A DNA stretch of 64,000 nt from the NCBI GenBank assembly GCA_046758065.1, contig JBHHZM010000001.1, positions 7,822 through 71,821 on the forward strand. The letters run 5' to 3'. Under the pieces are notes generated by a model. It saw nothing but the letters and a program-made list of their open reading frames with translations. It did no database searches and was not told the DNA's origin. This stretch comes from Alphaproteobacteria bacterium (GTDB lineage Bacteria; Pseudomonadota; Alphaproteobacteria; JAAXGF01). The translations under genes and the position numbers were made by a program. Below, in pieces: positions 39,925-57,994 of this stretch (positions within the stretch are counted from its first letter, which is position 1; the number at the start of each line of letters is the position of its first letter).

Positions 39925-41451
39925 TCAAAGTTTCCAGCGACGAGCGATTCTTTTCTTGCGGTCTTTAATAGCCTTTTCCACCTTTTTTTTATACGCGTCG
40001 ATGGTGCCAACCCGACGTTTCGCTTCGCGGGCCAACTGAGTGTCCAAGCGCAGGTCCACGGCCTCATCCCCGAGATCCCACTCCTTGTTATCGGGCTCGA
40101 TCCCGAGGTTCCATTCGATCGAAGCGGCGACCGAAAGGTAGGGCGCCTCCGTAAATTTCTCGAGGTGGCTGCTTTCAGCAGGGCCCTCCCCCTCAAGATT
40201 GGCCCATTCGCCAGAAAACGCAAAATGAGGCAATTTTATAGATAGATATTTTTTACATGAAGCGGGCGTTACGAATTCGTAATAATCACTCCATTTTTCT
40301 TCCGCTTTAAATAGCTTAGTAAACTCCTTTTCTTTAAAATTAAAAAAACCTAATGGATAATTGTCCAATTTCGTAATGCAGGAATCCCAATAAGTAATAG
40401 GATATGACATAGCACGAGCATTAACTCGCACCTCGAAGAAATTGCCATCCTTTAACTGCCCTCTAAAAATGAGCGCATGGCATATTTGAAAGGCAGCCCT
40501 GGGTGGCTCACTCTCCCCAACCGGAACGATGGTGAGCCAGATTTCGCGGACTCGCCGGGCTGTCACGTCTTTCGCCTCTATCACGCCGTCCGGAAGGTTG
40601 CGAGGATTACGATCGTAACGGTCGAACGGGGGATGTGTGCCTTTGAGAATCACGGTGGCATCTTCGACAATGAACCGCGCTGATGCCAAGACGTCGCCCA
40701 TCACCTGATAGATCAGGATGCCCGGCACCCAGCAAAGGTCGTCTAACCCAGAATAGGATTGATCATGGATATAATCAAATTCACCGTAACGACTATCTCC
40801 GGGATCAATTCCTATAATTGTTCCTTCTTTATCGAATAGAACACTGTTGTTCATTATGAACGAAAAATATTCATCCAGAGAATATTTTTTCGCAACCCAA
40901 TCGCACATGCCGCGCAACATGTCGCTGATGGTATGGCACCATTCCGCTTCGCTGCTTTGGATACTCTTATCCGCGGACAGATAATCCGTACCTTCAAAGA
41001 GTCGGAGAAGAAATGCATCTTCTTGCTTGTCAAGCGCCTTGGCCGCCTCTTGCGCAATTTTAATATAACCACGCGTACTCTGGGTAAGTTTTCTCCTTCT
41101 TTCTTTTTTCTTTTCTTCCGGAAGATCAGAGTCGAGCGCATATTGTGGCAGACGCTTGGTCGAGTCTTCCGGTTTGCCGTATCCGGCGGCATGTAAAATC
41201 TCCGATTTTCGGATGCCGCCTCGCTCGACTTGTTCAAGGATGGCCCAGAGATTCTCGGCGACAACCCCTCTCTCTCGGGGTTTGTTCATTCGGGGACGTT
41301 GTTCAAGGGCTGCCTTCAGGCTCTGACGGCGCTGGTCCTGATATGCGGCGTGTTGCTTTTCTTCTTCCTCGCGCCGTTTAGCCCTTTTTGGGCGTTCTTC
41401 CGGCGTGGACGAACCATGACGCGAGGAAAAGTCGATAACGTTGTCGGTCAT
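39925..41451 (-). CDS. Hypothetical protein (508 aa) of unknown function in the low-GC islet
   Basis: The N-terminal 60 aa are a charged K/R/E-rich stretch (PEERPKRAKRREEEEKQ). A globular region follows that I cannot assign to any family. The AT-rich codon usage is foreign to the host. The ATG at 41451 overlaps the upstream gene's stop (ATGA). Confidence 0.6.
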   Translation of the reverse strand: MTDNVIDFSSRHGSSTPEERPKRAKRREEEEKQHAAYQDQRRQSLKAALEQRPRMNKPRERGVVAENLWAILEQVERGGIRKSEILHAAGYGKPEDSTKRLPQYALDSDLPEEKKKERRRKLTQSTRGYIKIAQEAAKALDKQEDAFLLRLFEGTDYLSADKSIQSSEAEWCHTISDMLRGMCDWVAKKYSLDEYFSFIMNNSVLFDKEGTIIGIDPGDSRYGEFDYIHDQSYSGLDDLCWVPGILIYQVMGDVLASARFIVEDATVILKGTHPPFDRYDRNPRNLPDGVIEAKDVTARRVREIWLTIVPVGESEPPRAAFQICHALIFRGQLKDGNFFEVRVNARAMSYPITYWDSCITKLDNYPLGFFNFKEKEFTKLFKAEEKWSDYYEFVTPASCKKYLSIKLPHFAFSGEWANLEGEGPAESSHLEKFTEAPYLSVAASIEWNLGIEPDNKEWDLGDEAVDLRLDTQLAREAKRRVGTIDAYKKKVEKAIKDRKKRIARRWKL

Positions 41452-41819
41452 TGCCAGAGCCTCCGATGCCTTTGCCGCCAGCGATTCAACCGGCCGGGGC
41501 TGTGCCGCGGACGACGGCGTCGCGCCCGTTGGCCATGGACATGCAAGACCGTGACGATATGGCCGGTCTCTTCGCAGCGAATCACCACGAGGTTTGCGGC
41601 CCGCTCGACCAGACCGGGCGCATAGCCATCCGCCATAAGGGATGCGGTCTTCCGGCGGCTGATCTGCATCGAAATGCATCCGCGCCCCGCATTCAGCTCG
41701 ATGTCGCCGTGTTCGTCGATCAATTGTACCGCCTCGGACGGGATTCCGCGCTGTTGAAGCCGCCTGAGCGCGTGCCGCGTCATATGCGAGTGAGCGTTGA
41801 AGTATTCCATGTCCTGCAT
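41448..41819 (-). CDS. DUF4258-like small protein (toxin-like family), first gene of the islet operon
   Basis: MEYFNAHSHMTRHALRRLQQRGIPSEAVQLI ... GHIVTVLHV fits the DUF4258 pattern (F..HA..Rm.eRgI ... iITV) as I recall it. Confidence 0.55.
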   Translation of the reverse strand: MQDMEYFNAHSHMTRHALRRLQQRGIPSEAVQLIDEHGDIELNAGRGCISMQISRRKTASLMADGYAPGLVERAANLVVIRCEETGHIVTVLHVHGQRARRRRPRHSPGRLNRWRQRHRRLWQ

Positions 41820-42182
41820 CCCTCTCGTTGTCATGGCGGGATTGTCCTACACTCCAATCAACGGCGCATTCCAAAACTGGAAATTATAGAGGAATTTTAT
41901 TAGGAAGAAAATTTAGAATTCGACGGTATATCACGAGAAGATATTAGGTATATATCTGGCGCTTCGTATGGAACCGCTAAGCGCGACGGTTCGTAGACGG
42001 GCATCTCGCCGCTCGAACCGACCGGGATTACGGACATCTTGATTTTTGTGACCGTTGGCCGGTGCGGCGGGCATTCGGGCCAGCCGCCGTCATGCTGTCG
42101 AAGATCATGGGTTTGAGGTGTATATTTTCGTGGTTGCTCTCTCAAACGTTGCGGGGTCTCGGAAATGCGGCGACACGATACG

Positions 42183-42891: not shown

Positions 42892-44523
42892 ATGCAGCTC
42901 GCCCAGGCCCTGCTCGCCGCGCTGAAGGACCACGGCGCGCGGCAGGTGTTCGGCATTCCCGGCGACTTCGCGCTGGCCTTCTTCAAGGTGATCGAGGAGA
43001 GCGGCGTGCTGCCGCTTTACACCCTGTCGCACGAGCCCGGCGTCGGCTTCGCGGCCGACGCGGCGGGACGCGCCGGCTGCACGCTGGGCGTCGCCGCGGT
43101 GACCTACGGCGCCGGGGCGCTCAACCTGGTCAACGCGGTGGCCGGGGCCTGCGCCGAGCGCTCGCCGGTGGTGGTGATCTCGGGCGCGCCGGGGACGGCC
43201 GAGCGCGCCGCTGGCCTCGCGCTCCACCACCAGGCCAAGACGCTGGATTCGCAGTTCCGCGTGTTCCGCGAGATCACCTGCGACCAGGCCCGTCTCGACG
43301 ATCCCGAGCGCGCGCCGGCGGCGATCGCCCGGGTCCTGCGCAGCGCGCACGAGCAGTCGATGCCGGTCTATCTCGAACTGCCGCGCGACAAGGTGACGGC
43401 GCGCTGCGCGGCGGTCGAAAAGGCGCCCCCGAGCCCGGTGGCACCCGAAGCGCTCGCCGAATGCGCCGGGGAAATCCTGGCGCGCCTCGAAGCGGCGCGC
43501 GCGCCGGTGCTGATGGCCGGGGTCGAGATTCGCCGCTACGGCATCGAAGACAAGGTGGCCGATCTCGCCCGCCGTCTCGGCCTGCCGGTGGTCACCAGCT
43601 TCATGGGCCGTGGCCTGCTCGCCGATTCGAACGCGCCGCCGCTCGGTACCTACCTCGGCGTGGCGGGCGACCCCGAAATCACCGAGCTGGTCGAAAACTC
43701 GGACGGTCTGTTGCTGTTGGGGGTGATCCTGTGCGACACCAACTTCGGGGTTTCTCACCATCAGATCGACCTGCGCGCCGCCATCCAGGCGCTCGGGCGC
43801 CGGGTGCGCGCCGGTTATCACGTCTACCCAGACATTCCGCTCGACGCGCTGGTCGACGCGCTGCTCGACCGTGCGCCGAAGGGGGCGGAGAGCGCGCCCT
43901 CGGCTGCGGCGGCGACCGGGTATCCGACCGGGCTGGTTCGCGACGACGCCCCGATCACGCCGACCGACATCGCGCGCGCGGTCAACGACATGATGCGCGT
44001 CCGGGGCGCGATGCCGATTTCCTGCGACGTCGGCGACTGCCTGTTCACGGCGATGGATATCGAACACACGCGCCTCGCCGCGCCGGGCTATTACGCCGGC
44101 ATGGGTTTCGGCGTGCCGGGCGGTCTCGGCATTCAGGCGGCGCTCGACGAGCGGCCGCTGATCCTGGTCGGCGACGGCGCTTTCCAGATGACCGGCTGGG
44201 AGCTCGGCAATTGCCGACGTTACGGCTGGGATCCGATCGTCCTGCTGTTCAACAACGCGAGTTGGGAAATGCTGCGCGTCTTCCAGCCCGAGTCGCGATT
44301 CAACGATCTCGACGACTGGCGCTTCGCCGCCATGGCCGGCGCCCTCGGCGGCGTCGGCGAACGGGTGACGACGCGAGCGGCACTCGGCGCCGCGCTCGAC
44401 CGCGCGGCGGCGACGCGGGGCCGCTTCCGTCTCATCGAGATCATGCTGGAGCGCGGCGTCTGGTCCAACACGCTCGCGCGCTTCGTCGCCGGTCTCAAGC
44501 GGGGCCGACCACGCGAGGCGTGA
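42892..44523 (+). CDS. Thiamine-pyrophosphate-dependent alpha-keto-acid decarboxylase (indolepyruvate / phenylpyruvate decarboxylase family)
   Basis: N-terminal PYR-domain, central domain and C-terminal PP domain are all present (GDGAFQMTGWELGNCRRYGWDPIVLLFNNASWEML). Confidence 0.85.
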   Translation: MQLAQALLAALKDHGARQVFGIPGDFALAFFKVIEESGVLPLYTLSHEPGVGFAADAAGRAGCTLGVAAVTYGAGALNLVNAVAGACAERSPVVVISGAPGTAERAAGLALHHQAKTLDSQFRVFREITCDQARLDDPERAPAAIARVLRSAHEQSMPVYLELPRDKVTARCAAVEKAPPSPVAPEALAECAGEILARLEAARAPVLMAGVEIRRYGIEDKVADLARRLGLPVVTSFMGRGLLADSNAPPLGTYLGVAGDPEITELVENSDGLLLLGVILCDTNFGVSHHQIDLRAAIQALGRRVRAGYHVYPDIPLDALVDALLDRAPKGAESAPSAAAATGYPTGLVRDDAPITPTDIARAVNDMMRVRGAMPISCDVGDCLFTAMDIEHTRLAAPGYYAGMGFGVPGGLGIQAALDERPLILVGDGAFQMTGWELGNCRRYGWDPIVLLFNNASWEMLRVFQPESRFNDLDDWRFAAMAGALGGVGERVTTRAALGAALDRAAATRGRFRLIEIMLERGVWSNTLARFVAGLKRGRPREA

Positions 44524-44551
44524 CGACGCCGCCTGTCCGGCGACGGATGGA

Positions 44552-45259
44552 TCAGCCGCGGATGCCGATCGTCGGGGCGATCCCGACGACGCGCCGCGAT
44601 TCGCTGACGCCCACGAGGTCCGACAGGTAGCGGAACGCGCTTTCGATCGCCCCGGCCACGGTGCCGTCCCTGGTCCGGTCGTCTCCCAGCAGCGTCTCGT
44701 CGATTACCAGCGTGCCGGCGTCTCTCATCACCAGGACGCCGCCGCCGAGGAAGGCGACGACGGCCCTGGCCGCGGCGTCGGTGGTGACGCGGTCGCCGAG
44801 ACGAATGGCCATTCCCGCGCGGACGTTTTTCGTCTTGCCGCCCGGCGCCAGGACGCGGACGCTGCCCGTAACCGCAGTCAGCGTGGCGACGGCGGCGGCG
44901 TCGGTCGGAGCGGCGATCGCCGCGCTCTCCGCCGCCGAGTTGGCGCTCGCGCCCCCCAGGCTCGGCGACAGCATGCCGCCGACGGCAAGCGCCGCGGCCG
45001 CCATGAGCATGCGGCTTTGATGCGCCAGCGAGTGCTGGAGATCGTGTGGGCGGACCAGCCCCCGGCGCAGCAGCACCTCGCCGATCTTCTCGCCGGTCCC
45101 GCGTTGCTCGGAAAGCGCCGCGGCAAGCTGTGCCGAGGTAATCAACCCGCGGTCGACGAGGATCTCGCCGATCCTCAAGTGGTCCTCTCGATAGTTCCGG
45201 GCGATGGGCCGCCACCGCCGTTCACCCTTTCCGCCGGCGCGGTCGGAAGCGGCGCCCAT
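44552..45259 (-). CDS. MshEN-domain (c-di-GMP-binding) protein with a TM helix and a C-terminal FecR-like domain
   Basis: Two tandem 24-aa MshEN motifs match RLGxxLxxxGxIxxxxLxxALxxQ (LRIGEILVDRGLITSAQLAAALSEQ and KIGEVLLRRGLVRPHDLQHSLAHQ). A TM segment follows (MLMAAAALAVGGMLSP), then a FecR-like beta region (GSVRVLAPGG ... AGMAIRLGDRV). The start is uncertain, with 45409 as an alternative. Confidence 0.6.
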   Translation of the reverse strand: MGAASDRAGGKGERRWRPIARNYREDHLRIGEILVDRGLITSAQLAAALSEQRGTGEKIGEVLLRRGLVRPHDLQHSLAHQSRMLMAAAALAVGGMLSPSLGGASANSAAESAAIAAPTDAAAVATLTAVTGSVRVLAPGGKTKNVRAGMAIRLGDRVTTDAAARAVVAFLGGGVLVMRDAGTLVIDETLLGDDRTRDGTVAGAIESAFRYLSDLVGVSESRRVVGIAPTIGIRG

Positions 45260-45429
45260 GCCTGCGCCGCGCGGAGCCAACCACCGTCCGAGCCCGCGGC
45301 GCCGGCGGTGCTCGCCCGTCAGCGCGAGCGCAACGGGTCCGCGCTGCGGCGACCGGCGGGCCGGTCGTGTCGCTTCGCTTCCATGACGTCGACGATCGCT
45401 GAGCCACATGTCGCCAGAATAGACTCGAG

Positions 45430-45587
45430 CGGTTAACCGATGACTAACGAATCCGGATACTTGGGTAACCTTAATAAAACCACCACATAATGTTTGGTTC
45501 TTATTTACAGCGCGGGCCGGGTGGCAATGATGATTCATGCGTCCCGACCGGAGCGAACGGTTAACGACGTTGTCCCGCGGTTAACCG
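45430..45587. promoter_or_regulatory. Cluster of GGTTAAC(C) palindromes in the divergent intergenic region
   Basis: CGGTTAACCG occurs at 45430-45439 and 45578-45587, CGGTTAACG at 45558-45566, and variants GGTAACC at about 45464 and GGTTAAT at about 45696. The first site reads TTAA-N7-CTAAC, one mismatch from a CtrA box. Confidence 0.3.
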
Positions 45588-45855
45588 TGCGCGGGCGGCG
45601 GCGCGACGGGCGCCACGGCGCCGCAGGCCGCAGCCGGCCGCAGGGATTAGGAAAAAATTCACGAAAAATCGCCCGAGGTGTGACGGCCGTCACTGGTTAA
45701 TCACGTTAGTCATATATGATAGCCGGCGCCGCATGCCGTACGACGTTCGTGACGGTCCGTCGCCGCTTCCGGGAGGGCGTCCCAAAATCTCGGATACATA
45801 ATGCATGTCTGCGGCTTGCGAAGACAAAAAATTCAAGAAAGACAATAGAATTTAG

Positions 45856-47244
45856 ATGATCAGAGTCTTCAAACATTATATACCTACACCGTTCTTGGTT
45901 CTCTGTGTAATAGAGAACCTTATACTCGTCGTTTCAATATATTCCGCCATATATATCCGATACTTCAATGTCTCCTACGCGCCCGGGGCGATAGCGGAAT
46001 ATCTTCCGGAGGCGTTGACTTTCGCCGGCGCGATTCTGCTCACGATGTTCGCGGTCGGCCTGTACCGGCGCGAACACAGCCAGGATCTGCGCGCCGTCTT
46101 CTTTCGCCTGATCGCCAGCTTCGGTCTTGCCTTGATCGCGCTGTCGCTCGTTTTCTACGTCTTTCCCGACCTCAAGATCTGGCGCAGCGCCTTCGCCGTC
46201 GCCGTGATCCTGGCGCTTGTCGGTATCCTCGCGGCGCGCTTCGTCTTTCTCAAGCTGTGTGACCGCGCGGCGTTCAAACGGCGGATTCTGGTCCTGGGGG
46301 CGGGCGCGCGCGCGGCACACATCGAACGCCTGGAAACCGATGGCGAGGCGCAGAGTTTTACCCCGATAGGATTTCTGGCCACGCCTGACGCCGAGACGTG
46401 CGTGAACCCGTCGCGCGTTCTTTCCGGTGTCAACTCGCTCGCCGCCTTCGCCCGCGATCATGGTGTCGAGGAGATCGTGGTCGCCGTCGAGGATCGGCGC
46501 GCAGGCTTGCCGGTCGAGGCGCTTCTCGAATGCAAGCTCGAAGGAATATCGGTCACCGATTATCCCGGTTTCTGCGAGCGCGAGACCGGTCAGGTGGACC
46601 TCGATTCCCTGCAGCCGAGTTGGCTCATCTTCTCGGACGGATTCGTCACCGGACCGGTGCGCAACGTGCTGAAGCGCGGCTTCGACATCGTCGCAAGCCT
46701 CGTGCTCCTGGTCTTTACCTTTCCCCTGATCGCAACGGCGGCACTGGCGGTTCGTCTGGAGAGCCACGGCCCGATTTTCTACCGCCAGGAGCGCATTGGG
46801 CTCGCCGGGCGCCCGTTCATGCTGCTCAAGTTCCGAAGCATGAAGGTCGATGCCGAAGACGACGGCGTGCCGCGTTGGGCGGCGGCGAAAGACAGCCGCG
46901 TCACCCGCGTCGGGGCTTTCATTCGCAAGACGCGCATCGACGAGCTGCCGCAAATCTTCAACGTGCTCAAAGGCGAAATGAGCTTCGTCGGACCGCGGCC
47001 CGAGCGCCATTATTTCGTCGATCAACTGAGCGCCCAAGTGCCGTATTATTCCGAACGCCACCGGGTCAAACCCGGCATCACGGGCTGGGCACAACTCAAT
47101 TACCCTTATGGCGCCTCGATCGACGACGCCAAGGCGAAGCTGCAATACGATCTGTATTATGTTAAGAATTATAGTGCATTCCTCGACCTGAGCATATTGA
47201 TGCAGACGATTCGCGTCGTCTTGTGGCCAGAGGGAGTTCGCTGA
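45856..47244 (+). CDS. Exopolysaccharide polyprenyl-phosphate glycosyl-1-phosphate transferase (EpsB-family, PEP-CTERM-system associated)
   Basis: An N-terminal TM bundle precedes the C-terminal bacterial sugar transferase domain ([13 protein letters not shown] ... [22 protein letters not shown]). The 5' region is AT-rich. It lies directly upstream of prsK. Confidence 0.85.
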
Positions 47245-47269: not shown

Positions 47270-49375
47270 ATGGACGCCGGCTTCATCAGCCATTTGGCTG
47301 CCGCGGCCGCCTTTGCCGTTCTTACCCTTCTGCTGTTGGTCAGTTGGCGAGGACGGGGGGCGGGAACGCTGCTCATCGTCGCCAGCGTGACGACGATGGT
47401 CTGGGCTGCGCTGGCCGCCTATTTCGCCCTCGGCAACGTGGCGGAGACGGGCGGCCTGTTCTCGACGCCGGTGCGCGTGCTCGAGGTGCTGCGCAGTGCC
47501 GCCTGGATCGCGCTTCTGTGGGGCATTCTGACGATCAGCCTGCGGCGCGCCGGCGCGGCGCGCGTCCCGCGGGTCGGTCCCCTGATCACTGCGGGATTGT
47601 GTCTCGTTGTCCTCGCCCTCGATGTCTATCCCGATCTGGCGAGGATCCTGCGGTTGCCTTGCGAAGGTACCGCCTGCGCGGTGTTCGGCCGACTGGGCGT
47701 CGCCGTTATCGGCCTTGCCCTGGCGGAGAACCTTTACCGCAATACCGAATCCGAGCGTCGCTGGAGCATCAAGCACCTGTGTTTCGCCGTCGCCGGCATG
47801 TTCGTCTACGACATTTTTCTTTACGCCGACGCGATTCTCGTGCGGGCGCTCGATTACGAGCTCCTCGAGGTGCGCGGCATCACCAACGCGCTGATCGTTC
47901 CGCTGATCGCGGTATCGGCGGCGCGCAACCGCGAATGGCGGCTCGACATATTCGTCTCGCGGCGGGTCGTCTTTCACTCGGCGGCACTGATCGGCACCGG
48001 CGTCTACATGCTGCTGATGGCCGGTGTGGGCTATTACCTCAGAGAGTTCGGCGGCAGTTGGGGGGCGATGCTGCGCATGGCCTTCCTCTTCGGCGCCGCC
48101 ATCCTGCTGCCCATCATCCTGTCCTCCGGACGGCTTCGCTCGCGGCTCAAGGTTCTACTCACGAAGCACTTCTTCACGTACAAGTACGATTACCGCGAGG
48201 AGTGGCTGAATTTCATTCGTACGATTTCGTCGGCCACGCCGGGACGCAGCCTCCGCGACCAGACGATCCGCGCCATCGCCAACATCGTAGACAGCCCCGA
48301 CGGCGGTCTCTGGCTGCGCGGGGATGCCGATCGGTTCGATCTGACGACCACCTGGAACTTTGCCTGGCCGGCGGTGGAAGAACCGGCCGACGGCGCTTTC
48401 GCGCGGTTTCTCGAAGAGCGGCAATGGGTCGTGAATCTGAACGATTCCGCGCGGTCGGACAAGGCGCAGACGGGACCTCCGGTTCCCGAATGGTTGCGCG
48501 GGCTGAGTCGCGCCTGGCTCGTCCTTCCTCTGGTGCACGAGGAGCGGTTGTTCGGCTTTATCGTGCTCGGTCAGCCTCGCGCTCCCCGTCGGCTCAATTG
48601 GGAGGATTACGACCTGCTCAAGACCGTGGGCCGCCAGGCGGCGAGCTATCTGGCCCAAGAACAGGCGACGCGGGCACTCGCCGAGGCCCGCCAGTTCGAG
48701 GCGTTCAACCAGCGCTTCGCTTTCGTGCTGCACGATGTCAAGAATCTCGTGAGCCAGCTTTCGTTGATGGCGAAAAACGCGGCGAAGCACCGCGACAACC
48801 CGGCCTTTCAGGAAGACATGGTCCGGACAGTCGATGAATCGGTCGAGAAGATGAACCGTCTGTTGCAGCGACTCCACGCGGATTCGGCGAGCAGTCCCCG
48901 CTCTGTTGTCGAACTCGCCGGGCTGTTGCGCCGGATCGTCGACGAGCGCGCCGGCACGGCGCCCTCGGTCATCTTCGACGACGGCGGCGCGACCCTTGCC
49001 GTCGCCGTCGATGAAGATCGCCTCGCCGCGGTGGTCGAGCACCTGATCCAGAATGCCCTCGACGCCTCGCCCCCGGCCGCTCGGGTTCGGGTGCGCTTGT
49101 TTGCCAGCGGCGATGATGCGATCATCGAGGTCGAGGACAGTGGTGCCGGCATGGACGCCGAATTCATCCGCGAGGAACTCTTTCGGCCGTTCAAGACCAC
49201 CAAGGGGGCGGGGTATGGCATCGGCGCCTTCGAAAGCCGGGAGTTTGCGCGCCGCATGGGCGGTCGGCTCGATGTTTTCAGCGAGCCGGGCGAGGGGACG
49301 ACAATGCGATTGATCCTGCCTGTCGTAAAGGGTTCGCCCGAAACCACCGGCGATCGGCGAAAGGTGACGGCCTGA
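47270..49375 (+). CDS. prsK: PEP-CTERM system histidine kinase PrsK
   Basis: The 701-aa product has a multi-TM N-terminal region, a GAF-like domain, a HisKA H-box (FVLHDVKNLVSQL) and an HATPase_c domain. Its stop overlaps the prsR start (TGATG). Confidence 0.8.
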   Translation: MDAGFISHLAAAAAFAVLTLLLLVSWRGRGAGTLLIVASVTTMVWAALAAYFALGNVAETGGLFSTPVRVLEVLRSAAWIALLWGILTISLRRAGAARVPRVGPLITAGLCLVVLALDVYPDLARILRLPCEGTACAVFGRLGVAVIGLALAENLYRNTESERRWSIKHLCFAVAGMFVYDIFLYADAILVRALDYELLEVRGITNALIVPLIAVSAARNREWRLDIFVSRRVVFHSAALIGTGVYMLLMAGVGYYLREFGGSWGAMLRMAFLFGAAILLPIILSSGRLRSRLKVLLTKHFFTYKYDYREEWLNFIRTISSATPGRSLRDQTIRAIANIVDSPDGGLWLRGDADRFDLTTTWNFAWPAVEEPADGAFARFLEERQWVVNLNDSARSDKAQTGPPVPEWLRGLSRAWLVLPLVHEERLFGFIVLGQPRAPRRLNWEDYDLLKTVGRQAASYLAQEQATRALAEARQFEAFNQRFAFVLHDVKNLVSQLSLMAKNAAKHRDNPAFQEDMVRTVDESVEKMNRLLQRLHADSASSPRSVVELAGLLRRIVDERAGTAPSVIFDDGGATLAVAVDEDRLAAVVEHLIQNALDASPPAARVRVRLFASGDDAIIEVEDSGAGMDAEFIREELFRPFKTTKGAGYGIGAFESREFARRMGGRLDVFSEPGEGTTMRLILPVVKGSPETTGDRRKVTA

Positions 49376-50730
49376 TGGGTGCGCGGAATCGCAAACTGCT
49401 GATCGTTGAGGACGATTCGGGACTTCAGCGCCAATTGCGCTGGAGCTTCTCGGACTACGAGGTCTTCGTCGCCAAAGATCGGGACGGCGCTCTCGAATTG
49501 GTGAAAGATGAAAAACCGCCCGTGGTCACGCTCGACCTCGGCCTGCCGCCCGACGAGGACGGCACCTCGGAAGGCCTGGCGACGCTCGAGAATATTCTCG
49601 CACGGGCGCCGGACACCAAAGTCATCGTCGTCACCGGCAACGAGGATCGCGCCAACGCGGTAAAGGCCGTGGGTCTCGGCGCCTACGATTTCTACCAGAA
49701 GCCGATCGACGACGAGATGCTCGGCCTCATTATCCAGCGCGCCCATCAGCTTTACGAGCTTGAGGCGGACAACCAGCGGCTTACCGACGCTCGACGCGAA
49801 TCGACCTTGCGCGGGATCATCACGAGTTGTTCCGAGATGCTCAAGGTCTGCGGGACGATCGAAAAGATCGCGCCGGCCGACGTCAGCGTCCTGCTGGGCG
49901 GCGAGAGCGGCACCGGCAAAGAGCTTCTCGCGCGCGCGCTTCACGAACTGAGTGCGCGCCGGAAAGGTCCGCTCGTTACCATAAACTGTGCGGCGATTCC
50001 GGAGACCCTTCTCGAATCCGAACTCTTCGGGCACGAAAAGGGTGCTTTCACAGGCGCCGTCAAGCAGACCAAGGGCAAGATCGAGCTCGCCGACGGGGGC
50101 ACGCTGTTCCTCGACGAGATCGGCGACATTCCGGTCGCGCTACAGGTCAAGCTGTTGCGCTTCCTGCAGGAGCGGGTGATTGAACGGATTGGCGGGCGCA
50201 AGCAGATTCCCGTCGACGTGCGTATCGTCTGCGCCACCCACCAGGACCTTGACGCGCTTATCAAGGTGGGGCGGTTTCGCGATGACCTGTTCTACCGGAT
50301 CAGCGAAATCGTCATCAAGATCCCCCCGCTGCGCGACCGGGATAGCGATCCGATCGTCCTTGCTCGCAGTTTTCTGAACAAGTTCAACAAGGAGCTCGAT
50401 CGTTCCGTCCGCGGATTTACCGGCCCCGCGCTGGCGGCGATCACGAATTACCCCTGGCCCGGCAACGTGCGTGAGCTCGAGAACCGCATGAAGCGGGCCG
50501 TGATCATGGCCGAAGGCGTTCGCATTACCGCGGGCGACCTCGAACTCGAGGCGCCCGAAACCGAACCGATGCCGCTCGCCCTCAAGGACGTACGCGAGAT
50601 GGCCGAGCGCGACGCGGTGCAGCGAGCGCTCGCCGAAGTCGACGGCAACGTCTCGCACGCGGCAAAGCTCCTTGGTGTCAGCCGGCCGACGCTCTACGAT
50701 CTGATGCGGTATTACAATTTCAAATGGTGA
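49375..50730 (+). CDS. prsR: PEP-CTERM-box response regulator PrsR (sigma-54-dependent, NtrC family)
   Basis: It has a REC domain, a sigma-54 AAA+ domain (GESGTGKELLARALH, GAFTGA) and a C-terminal Fis-type HTH. Confidence 0.85.
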   Translation: MGARNRKLLIVEDDSGLQRQLRWSFSDYEVFVAKDRDGALELVKDEKPPVVTLDLGLPPDEDGTSEGLATLENILARAPDTKVIVVTGNEDRANAVKAVGLGAYDFYQKPIDDEMLGLIIQRAHQLYELEADNQRLTDARRESTLRGIITSCSEMLKVCGTIEKIAPADVSVLLGGESGTGKELLARALHELSARRKGPLVTINCAAIPETLLESELFGHEKGAFTGAVKQTKGKIELADGGTLFLDEIGDIPVALQVKLLRFLQERVIERIGGRKQIPVDVRIVCATHQDLDALIKVGRFRDDLFYRISEIVIKIPPLRDRDSDPIVLARSFLNKFNKELDRSVRGFTGPALAAITNYPWPGNVRELENRMKRAVIMAEGVRITAGDLELEAPETEPMPLALKDVREMAERDAVQRALAEVDGNVSHAAKLLGVSRPTLYDLMRYYNFKW

Positions 50731-50827
50731 ATCCGACAGCCGCAGGCGCTCGCCGAATCTGGCCTGCGCCCCGCACGGTCACGGGGAATCGGGTGGATCT
50801 TCGGCGTTACAGTGAAGGAGGCCCAGC

Positions 50828-53650
50828 GTGTTGAATTCCAGTCAACGGAGCCGCTTGCCGGTTCGTCAAACGATCGGTCGCCTTGTCGCCGCGTCGGTTC
50901 TTGCACTGACGCTCGCTGGTGTCCCCGCCCTTGCGGCCGCCGACCGCGAACAGTCCAACCGGCACTACGAGGACGCGCAAGCCTACGTCAAGCAGGGCGA
51001 CGTGAATGCCGCGGTGATCGAGCTCAAGAACGCACTGCAGAGCGACCCCGACAACGTTGCCGCGCGCTATCTGCTCGGTGAGATCTATGTGCGGACGGGA
51101 AACGGCGCGTCCGCCGAAAAGGAGCTCAAAAAGGCGCGCGAGCGCGGCCTCGACGAGGCGCGCGTGGCCGTTGCCTTGGCGCGGGCTTACCTGCTGCAGG
51201 GCAAGTTCAACGCCGTTCTCGAAGAGATTCCACGCGGCGAACGCGGCAACGATATCGAAGCGGCGATCGCCCTTGAACGCGGCCAGGCGTACTTCGGCCT
51301 CAACCGGGTCGACGAGGCCCTCGCCGCGTTCGAAGAGGCGCACCGTCTCAAGCCGGAGGATGCGGGGGTCAACATGGCGCTGGCGCGCGTCTTCGTTAGC
51401 AAGGGAGACATCGCGGCGGCCGAGGAACAGGCCGACACGGCGTTGTCGCTCGCACCCGAAATCGCCGATGTCTGGGTTCTCAAGGGCGAGCTTCGGCGTC
51501 TCCAACACGACCTCGAAGCCGCCGTCTCGCACTTCGACAAAGCGATCGAGATCCAGGCGAACAACGTCCCGGCGCGACTCGGCCGTGCGGCGGCGCTGAT
51601 CGACCTCAATCGTGACGACGCGGCGTTGGCCGACATCGACGTGGTGGCGAAGGCGGTTCCGAACCACCCGCTCGCATCCTACCTCGCGGCGCTCCTCGCG
51701 GCGAAGCGGAAGGACTATGGCACGGCCCAGGACCGCCTGCTGGAAGTTTTCCGCGTCCTGAACGATCACCTGCCGAGCATCTTTCTGTCCGGCGCCGTCA
51801 GTTACGCCCAGAACCAGCTCGAGCAGGCGGAGCACCAACTGAGACGTTACCTCAAGGCCGTCCCCCGCCACGCGGCGGCAAGAAAACTCCTCGGCGCCAC
51901 GCTGATCCGCAAGAACCAACCGGCCGGCGCGATCGAGGCGTTGCTGCCGGTGATCGAGGACGCGCCCGACGACGCCCAGGCGCTGGCCCTCCTGGGCAGC
52001 GCGTATATGCAGGACCGGCAGTACGCCAAGAGCACGGAGTATTTCGAGAAGGCGGCGGCGGCGTCACCGGAAGCCGCGTCGGTCCGCACGCAACTCGCGC
52101 TGAGCCGCATGGCGACCGGAGAATCCCAGCTTGCGCTTCAGGATCTCGAATCGGCCTTCGAACTCGACAGCGATCAAGGCCAGGCGGGAATTCTCCTCGC
52201 GCTCGCCCAACTGCGAAGCGGCAACTACGACGAAGCGATTAAGACTGCCGACGAGCTCGGCAAAAGACTCCCGGACAATCCGCTGCCCTTCAACCTCAAA
52301 GGCGCTGCTTTGATCGGCAAGGACATGTTCGCCGAAGCGCGGCAGAGCTACGAACAGGCGCTCAAACTGCAGCCGGATTACTTTCCTGCGACGATGAACC
52401 TGGCGCAACTCGATATGCGCGAGGGTCGGCCCGACGAGGCGAAGGCGCTCTACGAGTCGATCCTGGAAGTTGACGCCGGCCATGCGGGCGCGCTGATCGC
52501 CCTCGCGCGGATGGCGATGAGCGAGAAGCGTCCCGATGACGCCGTCGCGTTGCTCGACCGGGCGCGCGCGGCCAATCCGAAAAGCCTGCAGGCGCGGCTG
52601 TACCTGGTAAACCTCCACATCCAGCGGCGCGAGGCCGGAAAGGCGCTGACCGTGGCCCGTGAGCTCGAACAGATCGGCCCGCAGAGTCCGCAGGCCCTCG
52701 ACGCTCTCGCCAGGGCGCAGATCGCCAACGGCGAGGCGGAGAGCGCCGTCGCCACCTACCGCCGCATCATCGCGTTCAATAACGCTTCAGCCGGGGTCTA
52801 CCAGCGTTTAGCAGCGGCACAAGTGGTGGCGGGTGACATGGCGGGAGCCCGGGAATCGCTGGCGACGGCGCGCTCGGTTGACCCCAAGTTCCTGCCCGCA
52901 CGGATTGCTTCCGTCGAACTCGAGCTGCGCGACGATAAGCCGGATGCCGCGCTCGCGCTGGCGAAGGAACTGCGCGACGAGCAGCCCGACTCCCCCGTCG
53001 GCGACATGCTCGTGGGCGATGCGCTGATGCGCACGGAGCGGTTTGCCGAGGCCGCCGAGGCTTATGCCCGGGCGAGCGGGAAAAAGAACAGCGCCGCGCT
53101 CGCCGTACGCCGGTACAACGCACTCGTCAAAAGTGGCGATACGGACCGCGCGCTGGCGATTCTCAAGGACTGGGTCGACGCCAATCCCGACAATCACGCC
53201 TCGCGGCTGGTTCTTGCCGGCGCCTATCTGAAGGCGCGACGCTATCCCGAGGCAATCGAGAATCACGAACAGCTCCTCAAGATCGATCCGAAAAACCCGG
53301 TGATCCTTAACAACCTCGCATGGATCTATCTTGAGACCGGCGACCCGCGGGCTCTCGACTACGCCGAGAAGGCTCATGAAAACGCACCCCAGTCGGTTTC
53401 GATCACCGATACGCTGGGCTGGATTCTGACACGCCAGGGGCAGGGCGAACGAGGACTCGAACTGCTCAAGAAAGCGAGCGCTCAGGCGCCTGCGGAATCC
53501 GAAATCCGCTTCCATTTGGCGGTGGCGCTGAACAATCTCGGCCGGCGCGACGAGGCGCGCCGTGAGCTCGAAAGCGTGGTCAAGTCGGGAAAACACTTCG
53601 CCGCCATGGACGAAGCGCGCTCCCTCCTGCGCGAACTGTCGCAGCAATGA
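50828..53650 (+). CDS. prsT: PEP-CTERM system TPR-repeat lipoprotein PrsT
   Basis: The 940-aa product has a signal peptide and is almost entirely tandem TPR repeats. It lies immediately after prsK-prsR. Confidence 0.8.
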   Translation: MLNSSQRSRLPVRQTIGRLVAASVLALTLAGVPALAAADREQSNRHYEDAQAYVKQGDVNAAVIELKNALQSDPDNVAARYLLGEIYVRTGNGASAEKELKKARERGLDEARVAVALARAYLLQGKFNAVLEEIPRGERGNDIEAAIALERGQAYFGLNRVDEALAAFEEAHRLKPEDAGVNMALARVFVSKGDIAAAEEQADTALSLAPEIADVWVLKGELRRLQHDLEAAVSHFDKAIEIQANNVPARLGRAAALIDLNRDDAALADIDVVAKAVPNHPLASYLAALLAAKRKDYGTAQDRLLEVFRVLNDHLPSIFLSGAVSYAQNQLEQAEHQLRRYLKAVPRHAAARKLLGATLIRKNQPAGAIEALLPVIEDAPDDAQALALLGSAYMQDRQYAKSTEYFEKAAAASPEAASVRTQLALSRMATGESQLALQDLESAFELDSDQGQAGILLALAQLRSGNYDEAIKTADELGKRLPDNPLPFNLKGAALIGKDMFAEARQSYEQALKLQPDYFPATMNLAQLDMREGRPDEAKALYESILEVDAGHAGALIALARMAMSEKRPDDAVALLDRARAANPKSLQARLYLVNLHIQRREAGKALTVARELEQIGPQSPQALDALARAQIANGEAESAVATYRRIIAFNNASAGVYQRLAAAQVVAGDMAGARESLATARSVDPKFLPARIASVELELRDDKPDAALALAKELRDEQPDSPVGDMLVGDALMRTERFAEAAEAYARASGKKNSAALAVRRYNALVKSGDTDRALAILKDWVDANPDNHASRLVLAGAYLKARRYPEAIENHEQLLKIDPKNPVILNNLAWIYLETGDPRALDYAEKAHENAPQSVSITDTLGWILTRQGQGERGLELLKKASAQAPAESEIRFHLAVALNNLGRRDEARRELESVVKSGKHFAAMDEARSLLRELSQQ

Positions 53651-54678: not shown

Positions 54679-56517
54679 CTAGATCTCCGGCAATTCCTTG
54701 CTCGCACCTTCGGTTTCCTCGCGGAGATCCGAGAGTGCGCGACCGAGAGATTTTGCCGAGGTCTGCCGCCCGGCATTTCCGCCGGTACGGCGTTTCTTCG
54801 GCCGGGCGATGTCCGCAGTGCCCGTGAAGGCGCGGCCGGCCTCGCTCAGTTCGCTGGCGAGCACCACGAACTTTTCGACGGTTTCGCGGCTCGCCCGGGC
54901 GGCGGCGTTCATCTCGGTGGCGGCGCCCGCGATCACCTTGCCCGCCGCCCCATCGTCATCGAGGACGGTGAGCAGCCGGTCCTGGGTGTCGACCACTTGG
55001 TTGAGAATGGGCGTCACCGACAGTGCGAGGCTTTCGACCACGGTCTGCAGGCCGCTGAAGGCGGCCGACGTCTTGGCCAGGTCCTTGCCGCTGGTCGCGA
55101 GCGCCGCGTTGGTGATCTGTTCGACCCGGTCCAGGGTCTTCTTGACCAACGCATCGAACTGCTTCGAATGCTTGTCGACGTCGCGCCCCAGATTGGACGA
55201 GAACCGCTTGAGCTGGGCGGCGAGCTGCTTGTTTTCCTTGGCATGCTGGCTGTGCTCCACCTCGATCGCGGCGCGCAGTTCCTTGGAGAAAGTCTCGGCC
55301 TGCGCCGTGATCTGCCGGTTGAGCGTGTCGGCCAACCCGGCGAATGCCTTTTCCACGTCGGTGGCGATCGCGCTCGACGATTTGAGCAGCTCGTTGACCT
55401 CGCCGAGCTGGTCGCCAAAGCGCGTTTCGAGTTCGCTCACGAACCGCTCCAGGGCCGCGGCGAGAAGCTGCTGCACGCGCTCGCCTTCGTCCCGGGTCGC
55501 CTGGTTGACCGCCTCGGTCAGCAAGGTCATGGGCCGGGCGAGCGCCGCCCGGATCGATGCGCTCAGCGCCTCGGAGGCGGCGCGGCCCTGGTTCGCAACG
55601 GCCTTGACGAGTTTCTCGTTCTCCTTGCCCAGCGCGGTCTTGAGGTCGCTTCCGAGGGTCGCGACCGCGCGTTGCAGAACGCCGGCCTCGCTCTCGATCG
55701 TCCGGGTCACGGCGTTCAGGTCCGGGGCGTTGCCGCCGAGTCGGAAGAGACCGTCGATGCGACGGCAAATCTCGCCGGTTTGCTGGTAGCGCAGCGCGAC
55801 CACGGCGTGATGGACGAAGCCGATTGCTACCGCGAAGCACAGCGCGAGGAACAGCGCGATCAGGCCGCCTTGGGCGCCGACGGCGAGTGCGCCGTACGAA
55901 ACCTCGCCCCATCCCGCGGTCGTGGCGTTCGTCCGCAGATGTTCGAGACCGTCGAGGAGTCCGAAGGCGAGACCGAGCACGCCGAGTCCGCACAGGATGG
56001 CCGGCAGCCGCCGGAAGAACCAGACGAAGAGCCGCGCATCGACCAGAATCTCCCGGCGGAAATAGGTCGCCGCCGGGACGACCGCGCGATAGCGGTCCGC
56101 GTCGCGGTGGCCGTCGTTCGGTGCGCTGTCTTCGGCCTGAAGCGTGATGCTGTAATTGGCGGCGAGATCGACGAGTTCATCGGCTTCTCCGAACGCGGTG
56201 AGAAAGCTGCGCCGGTCGGTGTGCTCGCCGTCGCGTTGGCGTGTCTCGAGCCGCGCCAGGCCGGAGAGGGCGTGCCGCGCCTTCATCCAGTCGCCGAGAC
56301 CGATCGCCACGAAGGTGAGCACGAACACGCTGGCAGCGGCCAGCAGCAGGCCGAATACGAACGAGATATAGCCTTGTGTGCTCAGGGCTCCGGCGTCCCC
56401 GCCGTCGAGCAGCGTCGAAGTGAACCAGGCCACGACGCGCGGACCCCGGGCGTACCCCTGAACGCCGGTGAACGCCGATACGGCGAGTGCCAGAATGATC
56501 CAGAACCGCATCAGCAC
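54679..56517 (-). CDS. Membrane protein with four N-terminal TM helices (MotA/ExbB-like topology) and a C-terminal coiled-coil tail of about 350 aa
   Basis: Layout is TM1-TM2, a roughly 100-aa cytoplasmic loop, TM3 (LPAILCGLGVLGLAFGLL, weakly reminiscent of the MotA/ExbB PxxGLxGT motif) and TM4. Heptad-like helical repeats run to the C-terminus. It ends 12 nt upstream of galE and is cotranscribed with it. Confidence 0.6.
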   Translation of the reverse strand: MLMRFWIILALAVSAFTGVQGYARGPRVVAWFTSTLLDGGDAGALSTQGYISFVFGLLLAAASVFVLTFVAIGLGDWMKARHALSGLARLETRQRDGEHTDRRSFLTAFGEADELVDLAANYSITLQAEDSAPNDGHRDADRYRAVVPAATYFRREILVDARLFVWFFRRLPAILCGLGVLGLAFGLLDGLEHLRTNATTAGWGEVSYGALAVGAQGGLIALFLALCFAVAIGFVHHAVVALRYQQTGEICRRIDGLFRLGGNAPDLNAVTRTIESEAGVLQRAVATLGSDLKTALGKENEKLVKAVANQGRAASEALSASIRAALARPMTLLTEAVNQATRDEGERVQQLLAAALERFVSELETRFGDQLGEVNELLKSSSAIATDVEKAFAGLADTLNRQITAQAETFSKELRAAIEVEHSQHAKENKQLAAQLKRFSSNLGRDVDKHSKQFDALVKKTLDRVEQITNAALATSGKDLAKTSAAFSGLQTVVESLALSVTPILNQVVDTQDRLLTVLDDDGAAGKVIAGAATEMNAAARASRETVEKFVVLASELSEAGRAFTGTADIARPKKRRTGGNAGRQTSAKSLGRALSDLREETEGASKELPEI

Positions 56518-56709
56518 GTGATGTTCCTCACGATCGCCGGGAGACGCTCGCCGCCGGCGTATGACGATCGCCGGGCGTGGCGCACGGCATGACTACGGCC
56601 TGCCGTCGCCGCGGGCGTGGCCATGGCAGTCTACACCGCCATTGGGACGAAAATACCGTAAAGTTTGTATGAATCGGCAAGCCGGACGCGCCGCTGCCCG
56701 GCGCAGCGG

Positions 56710-57711: not shown

Positions 57712-57860
57712 GCGGTCTCCGGCCGGGTTGCGGATGTCGGCGGGCGCGGCCGACGACGGCAGCGACGCCTTGCGCCCGGGGCATTGTAAACAATGCCGGT
57801 CGGGTATTGACACCCGCTAACCGTTGATCTCCCGCCCCGTATGCGGAACCGCCGCCGGCT

Positions 57861-57888
57861 CTTGAATCCCGCGTCTCGGTTCCTACAT
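57861..57888 (+). promoter_or_regulatory. Putative sigma-32 (RpoH)-type heat-shock promoter upstream of hsp20
   Basis: CTTGAA, a 15-nt spacer and CCTACAT match the alphaproteobacterial RpoH consensus CTTG-N17-CYTATNT. Confidence 0.3.
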
Positions 57889-57994
57889 TTCCGTCGGTCG
57901 GGAGGCCGATGATGGCTCCCACCGCCGACCCGGCCGGTTGTTCGGCGGGTCTGGTCTGCAACCGATGATATCGCTTCTGAAGGAGGATATTGCG

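What the first reader, a model, noticed from the sequence alone, without database searches (positions are those of the whole stretch)
44552..45259. Putative c-di-GMP receptor: tandem MshEN motifs fused to a TM helix and a FecR-like periplasmic domain, divergent from the EPS priming transferase
Both halves of the published MshEN c-di-GMP-binding motif (RLGxxLxxxGxIxxxxLxxALxxQ) are matched almost perfectly (LRIGEILVDRGLITSAQLAAALSEQ / KIGEVLLRRGLVRPHDLQHSLAHQ). An MshEN-TM-FecR architecture sitting beside a PEP-CTERM exopolysaccharide regulatory locus would give a direct second-messenger input into EPS control. The same window also encodes a PAS/GGDEF-like/EAL enzyme.
Basis: partly seen in the sequence, partly recalled or inferred. 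Interest (0 to 1): 0.6.

Follow-up and report, generated by a model that had tools for sequence, protein, structure and literature searches.

The report
Membrane-anchored c-di-GMP receptor with half FecR domain
A small, very rare membrane protein joins an intact binding module for the bacterial second messenger c-di-GMP to a periplasmic domain that stops exactly where related FecR regulators cut themselves, and it sits beside a slime (exopolysaccharide) control locus, so it may carry the intracellular signal across the membrane.

Summary
The minus-strand gene ending at 44552 encodes a complete 53-residue MshEN_N c-di-GMP-binding unit. It scores 66 bits against NCBIfam NF053729 (cut-off 38) and aligns residue for residue with V. 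cholerae MshE 9-63. All key residues and the 5-residue spacer are kept.

The start is most likely TTG 45178 (208 aa, MRIGE...), not ATG 45259. The only ortholog begins at the same position.

In the model, helix 4 of the binding unit runs straight into a probable transmembrane helix. The periplasmic part is homologous to FecR-family (PF04773) proteins, but Pfam's own FecR model does not detect it. It ends on the conserved IGIRG glycine. In about 97 related motif sites a Thr follows that glycine, and in E. coli FecR the same position is the G181|T182 self-cleavage site.

The gene is divergent from the TIGR03013 priming transferase, followed by prsK, prsR and prsT.

Among about 15 billion proteins only one other protein has this architecture, and its contig gives no context. 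The link to exopolysaccharide control therefore rests on adjacency in one genome.

Verdict: a new domain architecture of a known receptor class. c-di-GMP binding is likely; inside-out signalling is inferred. Interest is moderate.

The parts
44552..45178 (-). Coding sequence of the 208-aa protein (TTG start, TGA stop); identical to GenBank MFQ5783231.1 / locus tag ACE5H8_00220
   Evidence: GC by codon position is 0.72/0.55/0.89. The ortholog P0006 is 46% identical over the full length, with the same start and end.
45179..45259 (-).
   Evidence: GC3 is 0.78 here against 0.89 in the CDS. GAGAGGA lies just before the TTG. The extension is absent from the GenBank product and from the ortholog.
45017..45175 (-). 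53-residue MshEN_N c-di-GMP-binding unit (residues 2-54): motif 1 at 45104-45175, a 5-residue spacer, and motif 2 at 45017-45088
44954..45010 (-). Probable transmembrane helix (residues 57-75, MLMAAAALAVGGMLSPSLG), continuous with helix 4 of the binding unit
   Evidence: The AlphaFold model has one helix spanning residues 44-69. The ortholog's hydropathy maximum is 1.96 at residues 57-75. Other MshEN proteins have a hydrophobic stretch at the same place. No dedicated topology predictor was available.
44894..44953 (-). Ala/Ser-rich linker (residues 76-95)
   Evidence: pLDDT falls to 46-51 around residues 71-90 and rises to 79 for residues 91-100; residues 78-87 are below 50. The stretch is poorly conserved in the ortholog.
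44705..44893 (-). Beta-sandwich (residues 96-158) shared with the N-terminal part of FecR-family domains and with the anchoring domain of RTX adhesins
44555..44704 (-). C-terminal tail (residues 159-208) ending in the invariant IGIRG (44555-44569), followed directly by the stop codon
   Evidence: It aligns with FecR-family proteins up to the Gly that precedes the conserved Thr. pLDDT is 39-48. The equivalent region is modelled confidently in a homolog that keeps the strands after GT.
45179..45855 (.). Shared divergent intergenic region with the CGGTTAACCG palindrome at 45430 and 45578, CGGTTAAC at 45558, and the inverted repeat ATGACTAACG/CGTTAGTCAT at 45440/45704
   Evidence: Five of the six CGGTTAAC matches in the window lie here; 0.68 are expected by chance. 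Function was not tested.
45856..47244 (+). Context: XrtA/PEP-CTERM-system priming glycosyltransferase (TIGR03013), divergently transcribed
   Evidence: 574.9 bits against a cut-off of 393.
47270..53650 (+). Context: prsK (47270-49375), prsR (49375-50730) and prsT (50828-53650)
   Evidence: TIGR02916 gives 776 bits, TIGR02915 gives 712 bits and TIGR02917 gives 820 bits, all above their cut-offs.

Best explanation
The gene encodes a single-pass inner-membrane receptor for c-di-GMP. Shown: residues 2-54 are an intact MshEN_N unit. Shown in the model only: its last helix continues without a linker into a hydrophobic helix. Shown by homology: the remaining 130 residues are a linker plus the N-terminal part of a FecR-family beta-domain, and the polypeptide ends on the Gly that precedes the self-cleavage Thr in FecR-type regulators. 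Inferred topology: the binding unit faces the cytoplasm and the beta-domain faces the periplasm. Inferred mechanism: c-di-GMP binds at the membrane surface and changes the position or pairing of the transmembrane helix. That changes what the periplasmic half-domain binds, so this would be inside-out signalling, as LapD does with unrelated domains. The half-domain lacks the strands that complete it in homologs, so it may dock onto a partner that supplies them. Weakest inference: the partner or target belongs to the adjacent PEP-CTERM exopolysaccharide system.
For: Binding unit: NF053729 scores 66 bits against a cut-off of 38. The unit aligns to MshE 9-63 with R2, G4, G11, L18, L22, Q25, K31, G33, G40, L47, L51 and Q54 in place and a 5-residue spacer. 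None of the substitutions that abolish binding in XpsE is present (list). Lys at the first motif position is compatible with nanomolar binding in PilF (PMC11731258). Isolated MshEN_N 1-62 binds c-di-GMP at 0.35 uM (PMC5013675). The predicted fold superposes on c-di-GMP-bound MshE and PilF.

Membrane and topology: the model shows one helix over residues 44-69. Hydropathy is 1.96 in the ortholog. Homologous beta-domains in other proteins sit behind signal peptides.

Periplasmic domain: an exhaustive HMMER search gave 108 hits, and nine of the ten scanned match Pfam FecR (eight above its 24-bit gathering score). The profile search returned mostly PF04773 proteins.

End at the GT site: Thr follows the motif at 97 of 113 motif sites in 108 homologs, counted with a loose pattern. 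This protein, its ortholog and six others stop at the Gly. Genuine stop codons were confirmed for the window gene, the ortholog, P0142 and P0145. In P0142 and P0145 the terminal Gly is Pfam FecR model position 75, and E. coli FecR G181 maps to positions 73-75. FecR cleaves between G181 and T182 (PMC12036975).

Selection: the ortholog keeps both ends and all motif positions at 46% identity, and GC3 is 0.89.

Parallel case: P0113 has MshEN motifs, a TM helix and a different periplasmic domain, and lies inside a chaperone-usher pilus operon.

Context: the gene is divergent from TIGR03013, prsK, prsR and prsT. The PEP-CTERM kinase family EpsG (TIGR03029) also begins with an MshEN_N unit.
Against: No binding, topology or phenotype data exist. 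Pfam FecR and Pfam T2SSE_N do not hit the protein itself. The hydrophobic segment in this protein is Ala-rich and only marginal (about 1.56). Residues 162-208 are modelled with low confidence, which may reflect divergence rather than a missing partner. The link to exopolysaccharide rests on one genome: the ortholog's contig is 1 kb with no neighbours, and scans of 185,579 genomes and of JGI metagenomes found no further member. No gene in the window encodes the missing C-terminal half of the domain. The ortholog replaces the two turn glycines of the motif with Lys and Ser, so binding strength may differ between the two proteins.
Confidence: 0.55

Rival explanations
1. It is a genuine membrane-anchored c-di-GMP receptor, but its position beside the PEP-CTERM locus is coincidental and it acts on something else. 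For example, with no C-terminal fragment to protect it, the periplasmic stub could be trimmed by a site-1 protease and RseP, as happens to the FecR N-terminal fragment. That would release or destroy the c-di-GMP-binding unit.
For: Only one genomic context exists. The gene is monocistronic, convergent with an indolepyruvate/phenylpyruvate decarboxylase gene and divergent from the EPS operon. In FecR, losing the C-terminal fragment exposes the N-terminal fragment to further cleavage ending with RseP (PMC12036975). The protein ends exactly where that N-terminal fragment ends.
Against: Divergent genes that share a 677-bp regulatory region with clustered palindromes are often co-regulated. An MshEN_N unit is already part of the PEP-CTERM system's EpsG kinase family. 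No protease data exist for this family.
Confidence: 0.25
2. The N-terminal unit only looks like MshEN and does not bind c-di-GMP, as with XpsE. The protein would then be a FecR-like periplasmic protein held in the membrane by a helical N-terminus.
For: Degenerate MshEN domains exist (PMC5013675). The positions after the first residue of each motif are Ile rather than Leu, and the ortholog lacks both turn glycines. Pfam T2SSE_N does not hit.
Against: The score is well above the curated cut-off of the model built for the binding motif. All residues reported as critical are kept and none of the XpsE-type substitutions occurs. Ile fits the published relaxed motif [RKPN]hG. An MshEN_N unit alone is enough for binding.
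Confidence: 0.12
3. It is a decaying remnant of a longer FecR-type gene that was truncated at its 3' end, and it has no function of its own.
For: The domain is incomplete relative to Pfam FecR. A second protein, apparently from the same assembly (P0002), carries only the last 51 residues, fused to an unrelated membrane protein. This suggests rearrangements involving this sequence.
Against: An ortholog at 46% identity has the same length, the same start and the same terminal IGIRG followed by a stop. At least six other FecR-family proteins also stop at that Gly, and two of them were checked on their contigs. GC3 of 0.89 is typical of expressed genes in this genome. There is no FecR-like remnant downstream; only 28 nt separate the stop from the convergent gene.
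Confidence: 0.05

Closest known systems
MshEN_N c-di-GMP-binding domain of V. cholerae MshE (PDB 5HTL) and T. thermophilus PilF GSPII-B (8PDK)
   Same: It has two 24-residue motifs joined by 5 residues. All contact residues are kept. The predicted four-helix fold superposes at 0.7-0.8 A.
   Different: There is no MshEN_C subdomain and no ATPase. The last helix runs into a membrane helix instead.
EpsG (TIGR03029) chain-length-determinant tyrosine kinase of PEP-CTERM/methanolan loci; Methylobacillus EpsG is listed as an MshEN_N-only protein
   Same: The MshEN_N unit sits at the very N-terminus of a protein associated with the same type of exopolysaccharide system. The target matches positions 4-61 of the TIGR03029 model.
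   Different: The score of 21.7 bits is far below the cut-off of 313.8. There is no kinase/ATPase domain. The output here is a periplasmic domain.
NfrB, the c-di-GMP-activated exopolysaccharide glycosyltransferase of E. coli
   Same: An MshEN unit controls a membrane-bound polysaccharide machine. The target gives weak matches to the NfrB MshEN region (PMC8669469 listed).
   Different: In NfrB the unit is fused to the enzyme. Here it is a separate small protein next to a priming transferase gene.
FecR / FoxR / PupR cell-surface-signalling sigma regulators
   Same: The topology is the same: a cytoplasmic N-domain, one TM helix and a periplasmic beta-domain of the FecR family. The target ends at the position equivalent to the G|T self-cleavage site, so it corresponds to the processed N-terminal fragment.
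   Different: There is no anti-sigma domain (DUF4880), no Thr and no strands after GT. There is no STN/FecR_C domain, and no ECF sigma or TonB transducer nearby. Pfam FecR does not reach threshold.
LapD inside-out c-di-GMP receptor
   Same: The proposed logic is the same: cytoplasmic c-di-GMP binding changes what a periplasmic domain binds (established knowledge of LapD; not tested here).
   Different: The domains are unrelated (HAMP, GGDEF and EAL with a periplasmic LapD/MoxY domain), and LapD has two TM helices. This is an analogy only.
N-terminal anchoring ('retention') domain of RTX adhesins (MpIBP region I, PDB 5IX9; LapA retention module NF033682)
   Different: The NF033682 score of 23.8 is below its cut-off of 50. 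There is no giant adhesin and no type I secretion context.

Membership tests
MshEN_N c-di-GMP-binding domain | Two 24-residue motifs (R/K/L)hGxxhhxxGhhxxxxLxxxLxxQ | tested here: met
   The motifs are RIGEILVDRGLITSAQLAAALSEQ and KIGEVLLRRGLVRPHDLQHSLAHQ. The consensus comes from PMC5013675 and PMC11731258.
MshEN_N c-di-GMP-binding domain | Five-residue spacer giving a 53-residue unit | tested here: met
   The spacer is RGTGE. The unit aligns without gaps to MshE residues 9-63.
MshEN_N c-di-GMP-binding domain | Score above the curated cut-off of the dedicated HMM (NF053729) | tested here: met
   66 bits against a cut-off of 38, E 1.9e-18, covering profile positions 1-53 of 53.
MshEN_N c-di-GMP-binding domain | Four-helix fold like ligand-bound MshE or PilF | tested here: met
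MshEN_N c-di-GMP-binding domain | Binds c-di-GMP | not testable with these tools
   This needs ITC or DRaCALA on residues 1-56.
Full MshEN / Pfam T2SSE_N (PF05157) | MshEN_C subdomain present and Pfam model hit | tested here: not met
   There is no PF05157 hit at E up to 10. The membrane helix follows residue 54 directly.
FecR domain (Pfam PF04773; CJM subdomain of PupR) | Pfam model above its gathering score | tested here: not met
   There is no PF04773 hit at E up to 10.
FecR domain (Pfam PF04773; CJM subdomain of PupR) | Sequence homology to bona fide members | tested here: met
   phmmer gave 108 hits at E up to 1e-3. Nine of ten scanned match PF04773, eight above its gathering score. A profile search returned mostly PF04773 proteins. 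A family HMM built here scores the target at 72 bits.
FecR domain (Pfam PF04773; CJM subdomain of PupR) | Complete domain including the Gly-Thr site and the strands after it | tested here: not met
   The protein ends at the Gly, about model position 75 of 97. The stop codon follows directly.
FecR-type cell-surface-signalling sigma regulator | N-terminal anti-sigma domain, C-terminal STN/FecR_C domain, and adjacent ECF sigma and TonB-dependent transducer | tested here: not met
   None of these domains is in the protein (compare E. coli FecR). The flanking genes are a decarboxylase and the EPS operon.
RTX-adhesin retention module (NF033682) | Score above the curated cut-off | tested here: not met
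   23.8 bits against a cut-off of 50. The fold similarity to 5IX9 is nevertheless strong.
Accessory component of the XrtA/PEP-CTERM exopolysaccharide system | Conserved co-occurrence with PEP-CTERM system genes across genomes | tested here: inconclusive
   The gene is adjacent to TIGR03013, prsK, prsR and prsT in this window. No other genomic context was obtainable.

The most novel reading that the evidence does not exclude
MshEN_N units fused head-on to a transmembrane helix form an unrecognised class of minimal, single-pass inside-out c-di-GMP receptors that serve different envelope machines. This window gives a FecR-type half-domain beside a PEP-CTERM exopolysaccharide locus, and P0113 gives another periplasmic domain inside a chaperone-usher pilus operon. 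In the present member the periplasmic module is a genetically 'pre-cleaved' FecR N-fragment. It would either capture a partner by strand complementation or be a substrate for regulated proteolysis, under c-di-GMP control.
Probability: 0.2. Interest if true: 0.75.

Novelty: new variant of a known kind. Interest (0 to 1): 0.5.

Why it matters
c-di-GMP acts in the cytoplasm, but much of what it controls (exopolysaccharide export, adhesins, pili) is assembled beyond the inner membrane. LapD is the main characterised receptor known to carry the signal across. If this protein binds c-di-GMP and changes a periplasmic interaction, it would be a far smaller solution to the same problem, at about 200 residues and one helix. 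It would also give the poorly understood PEP-CTERM/exosortase exopolysaccharide systems a testable second-messenger input. Separately, several FecR-family proteins end exactly at the self-cleavage glycine. That suggests the 'N-fragment' of these regulators can work as a module of its own.

Tried and rejected
- Pfam scan of the ORF gave no T2SSE_N or FecR hit, only sub-threshold noise.
- Word-indexed protein searches with the protein and with the two-member alignment found only MshEN-region matches, apart from the protein itself, P0006 (alignment search only), and P0002, which matches only the C-terminal 51 residues.
- The genome-contig scan gave 80 loci. The 18 inspected are pilus/secretion ATPases, an NfrB-like transferase or small MshEN proteins. 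No locus matched beyond query residue 142, and none of the inspected ORFs has the FecR part.
- The metagenome-contig scan with the C-terminal alignment found nothing. A DNA pattern for APTIGIRG-stop gave 8 chance hits.
- Exact look-ups for P0001 and P0002 contigs found nothing on record.
- I searched the window for a separately encoded C-terminal half of the FecR domain, using an HMM built from the 45 residues after GT. There was no hit.
- A sigma-54 promoter consensus search in the intergenic region gave matches no more frequent than chance, and none was convincing.
- An Rfam search of 44000-46500 for a c-di-GMP riboswitch or other RNA found nothing.
- The terminator scan found none.
- The afdb50 fold library was unavailable.
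- An HMM scan of 168 FecR-like hits for an MshEN unit found it only in P0001 and P0006.
- A direct alignment of E. coli FecR to the family HMM is weak (4 bits). It puts G181/T182 on the IGIRG|T position, so the register rests on that alignment plus Pfam coordinates and the shared GT[DE]F.V motif.

Full report
**1. What is in the sequence**

The window has about 68% G+C. On the minus strand an ORF runs from 45538 to a TGA at 44552-44554.

The GenBank product for this gene is MFQ5783231.1, a 'hypothetical protein ACE5H8_00220' from an Alphaproteobacteria MAG. It is 208 aa and starts at the TTG at 45178 (MRIGEIL...).

The only full-length relative found anywhere is P0006. It is 207 aa, 46% identical, and comes from a 1-kb Logan contig. 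It starts MKIGELL at the same position and ends at the same residue.

GC3 is 0.89 in 44555-45178, 0.78 in the 27 codons up to the ATG at 45259, and 0.57 further upstream. GAGAGGA precedes the TTG. I therefore place the CDS at 44552-45178. Either start includes the motif.

**2. The N-terminal unit**

NCBIfam NF053729 ('cyclic di-GMP-binding domain-containing protein, MshE-related') matches residues 2-54 over its whole 53 positions. It scores 66 bits against a cut-off of 38, with E 1.9e-18.

phmmer against PDB sequences aligns the same residues, without gaps, to V. cholerae MshE 9-63 (5HTL). It also aligns them to the c-di-GMP-binding GSPII domains of PilF and to PilB.

The residues correspond as follows:

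| MshE | This protein |
|---|---|
| R9 | R2 |
| G11 | G4 |
| G18 | G11 |
| L25 | L18 |
| L29 | L22 |
| Q32 | Q25 |
| R38 | K31 |
| G40 | G33 |
| G47 | G40 |
| L54 | L47 |
| L58 | L51 |
| Q61 | Q54 |

The spacer is five residues, as in MshE. Wang et al. list the substitutions that abolish binding in XpsE: G11V, I19R, L29R, R38G, G40L, L54H, L58C and Q61V. None of them is present here. Lys at the first motif position occurs naturally in PilF GSPII-B, which binds at 6 nM, and the consensus has been extended to (R/K/L). The isolated MshEN_N 1-62 fragment binds c-di-GMP at 0.35 uM, so the missing MshEN_C subdomain is not an obstacle. That absence also explains why Pfam T2SSE_N does not hit.

No other ORF in the window has such a unit. 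c-di-GMP binding is therefore likely, but it has not been shown.

**3. The helix**

In the model, helix 4 of the unit (from residue 44) continues unbroken to residue 69. Residues 57-75 are hydrophobic. The 19-residue Kyte-Doolittle mean is about 1.56 here (my own arithmetic) and 1.96 in the ortholog.

Other MshEN proteins recovered in the searches (P0003, P0112-P0114) have the same arrangement...Q-[KR]-x-L-hydrophobic stretch directly after the last motif. No dedicated topology predictor was available, so the membrane helix is probable, not proven.

**4. The C-terminal part**

Pfam FecR does not hit the protein. I ran an exhaustive HMMER search with residues 55-208 against 1.84 billion cluster representatives. 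It gave 108 hits at E up to 1e-3. Of ten scanned, nine match PF04773, eight of them above its gathering score. A profile built from the aligned region (A3) retrieved further proteins, mostly annotated PF04773.

The protein fails Pfam's own membership threshold.

**5. The unexpected feature**

All these relatives share an invariant motif, IGIRG. Using a loose pattern I counted 113 motif sites in 108 homologs; Thr follows at 97 of them and Ser or Cys at four more. Six proteins in that set simply end at the Gly: the target, P0006, P0002, P0015, P0051 and P0067. Two more, P0142 and P0145, turned up in the profile search.

The stop is genuine in the window, in the ortholog's contig, and in the contigs of P0142 and P0145, where unrelated genes or spacer follow.

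In P0142 and P0145 the terminal Gly is position 75 of the 97-position Pfam FecR model. E. coli FecR residues 110-202 map almost colinearly to positions 2-96, which puts G181 at positions 73-75. A direct alignment of FecR to the family HMM is weak (4 bits) but places LTALG|TEFTV on IGIRG|TdFxV. FecR self-cleaves between G181 and T182, and FoxR between G191 and T192 (PMC12036975; PMC7186176).

The target therefore corresponds to the N-terminal cleavage fragment of a FecR-type protein, written directly in the genome.

In the target's model, residues 162-208 have pLDDT 39-48. A homolog that keeps the strands after GT (P0147) is modelled at mean pLDDT 89.8, and its IGIRG strand (132-136) is followed directly by the next strand (139-143). 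This fits a half-domain that needs extra strands. It could equally reflect the target's greater divergence.

No ORF in the window encodes the missing half.

**6. Context**

The gene is convergent with an indolepyruvate/phenylpyruvate decarboxylase gene (TIGR03394, 884 bits). Across 677 bp it is divergent from the TIGR03013 XrtA/PEP-CTERM glycosyltransferase. That gene is followed by prsK (TIGR02916), prsR (TIGR02915) and prsT (TIGR02917), all well above their cut-offs.

The intergenic region holds five of the six CGGTTAAC matches in the window (0.68 expected by chance), including two perfect CGGTTAACCG palindromes. I found no Rfam family, no terminator and no convincing sigma-54 promoter there.

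The target also gives a weak match to the N-terminus of TIGR03029 EpsG, the tyrosine kinase of PEP-CTERM loci. Wang et al. name Methylobacillus EpsG as an MshEN_N-only protein. c-di-GMP input into this kind of exopolysaccharide system therefore has a bioinformatic precedent.

An EAL protein with a weak PAS match lies 18 kb away.

**7. How rare it is, and what that costs**

| Search | Result |
|---|---|
| Two word-indexed searches of 5.8 billion clusters | No second full-length context |
| Exhaustive HMMER search | P0006 only, plus the P0002 tail |
| Scan of one genome per 185,579 species | No full-length member |
| Two scans of JGI metagenomes | No member |

Among 168 FecR-like hits, only P0001 and P0006 carry an MshEN unit. 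The link to exopolysaccharide control therefore cannot be tested by conserved neighbourhood.

One indirect support is a parallel architecture. P0113 has three MshEN motifs, a TM helix and an unrelated periplasmic beta-domain. It sits between spore-coat-U-type pilins and the chaperone and usher genes of a pilus operon, on two independent contigs. I found no paper in the held library that combines MshEN with FecR or with chaperone-usher systems in this sense.

**8. Mechanism**

- Shown: an intact binding unit; homology of the C-terminal part to FecR-family domains; the end at the GT glycine; the neighbourhood.
- Inferred with fair confidence: N-in, C-out single-pass topology and c-di-GMP binding at the membrane surface.
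- Inferred with low confidence: ligand binding is passed through the continuous helix to the periplasmic half-domain, which docks on a partner belonging to the PEP-CTERM system (inside-out signalling, analogous to LapD).

The alternatives are given as rivals: a receptor unrelated to the locus and possibly subject to FecR-like proteolysis, a degenerate non-binding unit, or a gene remnant.

**9. Verdict**

It is a new domain architecture of a well-known receptor module, with an unusual truncated FecR part. It is not a new kind of system. Interest is moderate, because everything beyond domain assignment awaits experiment and there is only one context.

Noticed in passing
L093 8001-9092 (JGI Ga0483962_000029) and L094 499-1590: P0113 (363 aa) has three tandem MshEN motifs, a TM helix and a periplasmic beta-domain of about 140 aa. 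It is encoded inside a chaperone-usher pilus operon, in the order SCPU pilins, this gene, PapD-like chaperone, usher, SCPU. This is a second, unrelated case of an MshEN unit fused head-on to a membrane helix beside an envelope-assembly machine.
   Followed up: partly
proteins P0015, P0051, P0067, P0142 (L090 4001-4510) and P0145 (L091 3592-4101): Several otherwise unrelated FecR-family proteins also terminate exactly at the IGIRG glycine that precedes the conserved Thr. For P0142 and P0145 the stop codon is genuine and no gene for the missing half follows. A naturally 'pre-cleaved' FecR N-fragment therefore seems to be a recurring form.
   Followed up: partly
protein P0002 (MFQ5786027.1; its contig was not retrievable): This 160-aa protein is annotated as a CDP-alcohol phosphatidyltransferase. 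Its accession number suggests it comes from the same MAG submission as the target. Its last 51 residues are 84% identical to the target's low-confidence C-terminal tail and also end in IGIRG. It could be a duplicated or recombined fragment, or an assembly chimera.
   Followed up: partly
window 45430-45587 and 45440/45704: The CGGTTAACCG palindrome occurs twice, plus one CGGTTAAC. Five of the six window matches lie here against 0.68 expected by chance. There is also a 10-nt inverted repeat, ATGACTAACG/CGTTAGTCAT. All lie in the region shared by the target and the EPS operon and are candidate regulator sites.
   Followed up: partly
window 54679-56517 (-): A 612-aa MotA/ExbB-like protein matches PADLOC ZorA1 at E 7.8e-62, but falls below NCBIfam's Zorya cut-offs. 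No ZorB-like gene lies downstream; galE follows. The 595-aa ORF upstream (56528-58315) has no family hit.
   Followed up: partly
window 39925-41874 (-): A 649-aa ORF lies in a low-GC island (0.52 against about 0.68) and has no hit in Pfam, NCBIfam or PADLOC. It may be horizontally acquired.
   Followed up: no
window 25152-26891 (-): A 579-aa protein has a strong EAL domain (E 6.6e-59) and a sub-threshold PAS match. It is a likely c-di-GMP phosphodiesterase in the same window.
   Followed up: partly
window 62-6147 (+): Two adjacent large genes encode a PD-(D/E)XK nuclease protein and a UvrD-type helicase-nuclease, which looks like an AddAB-like pair. A LonB/LonC-like AAA protease lies at 21692-24172.
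   Followed up: no
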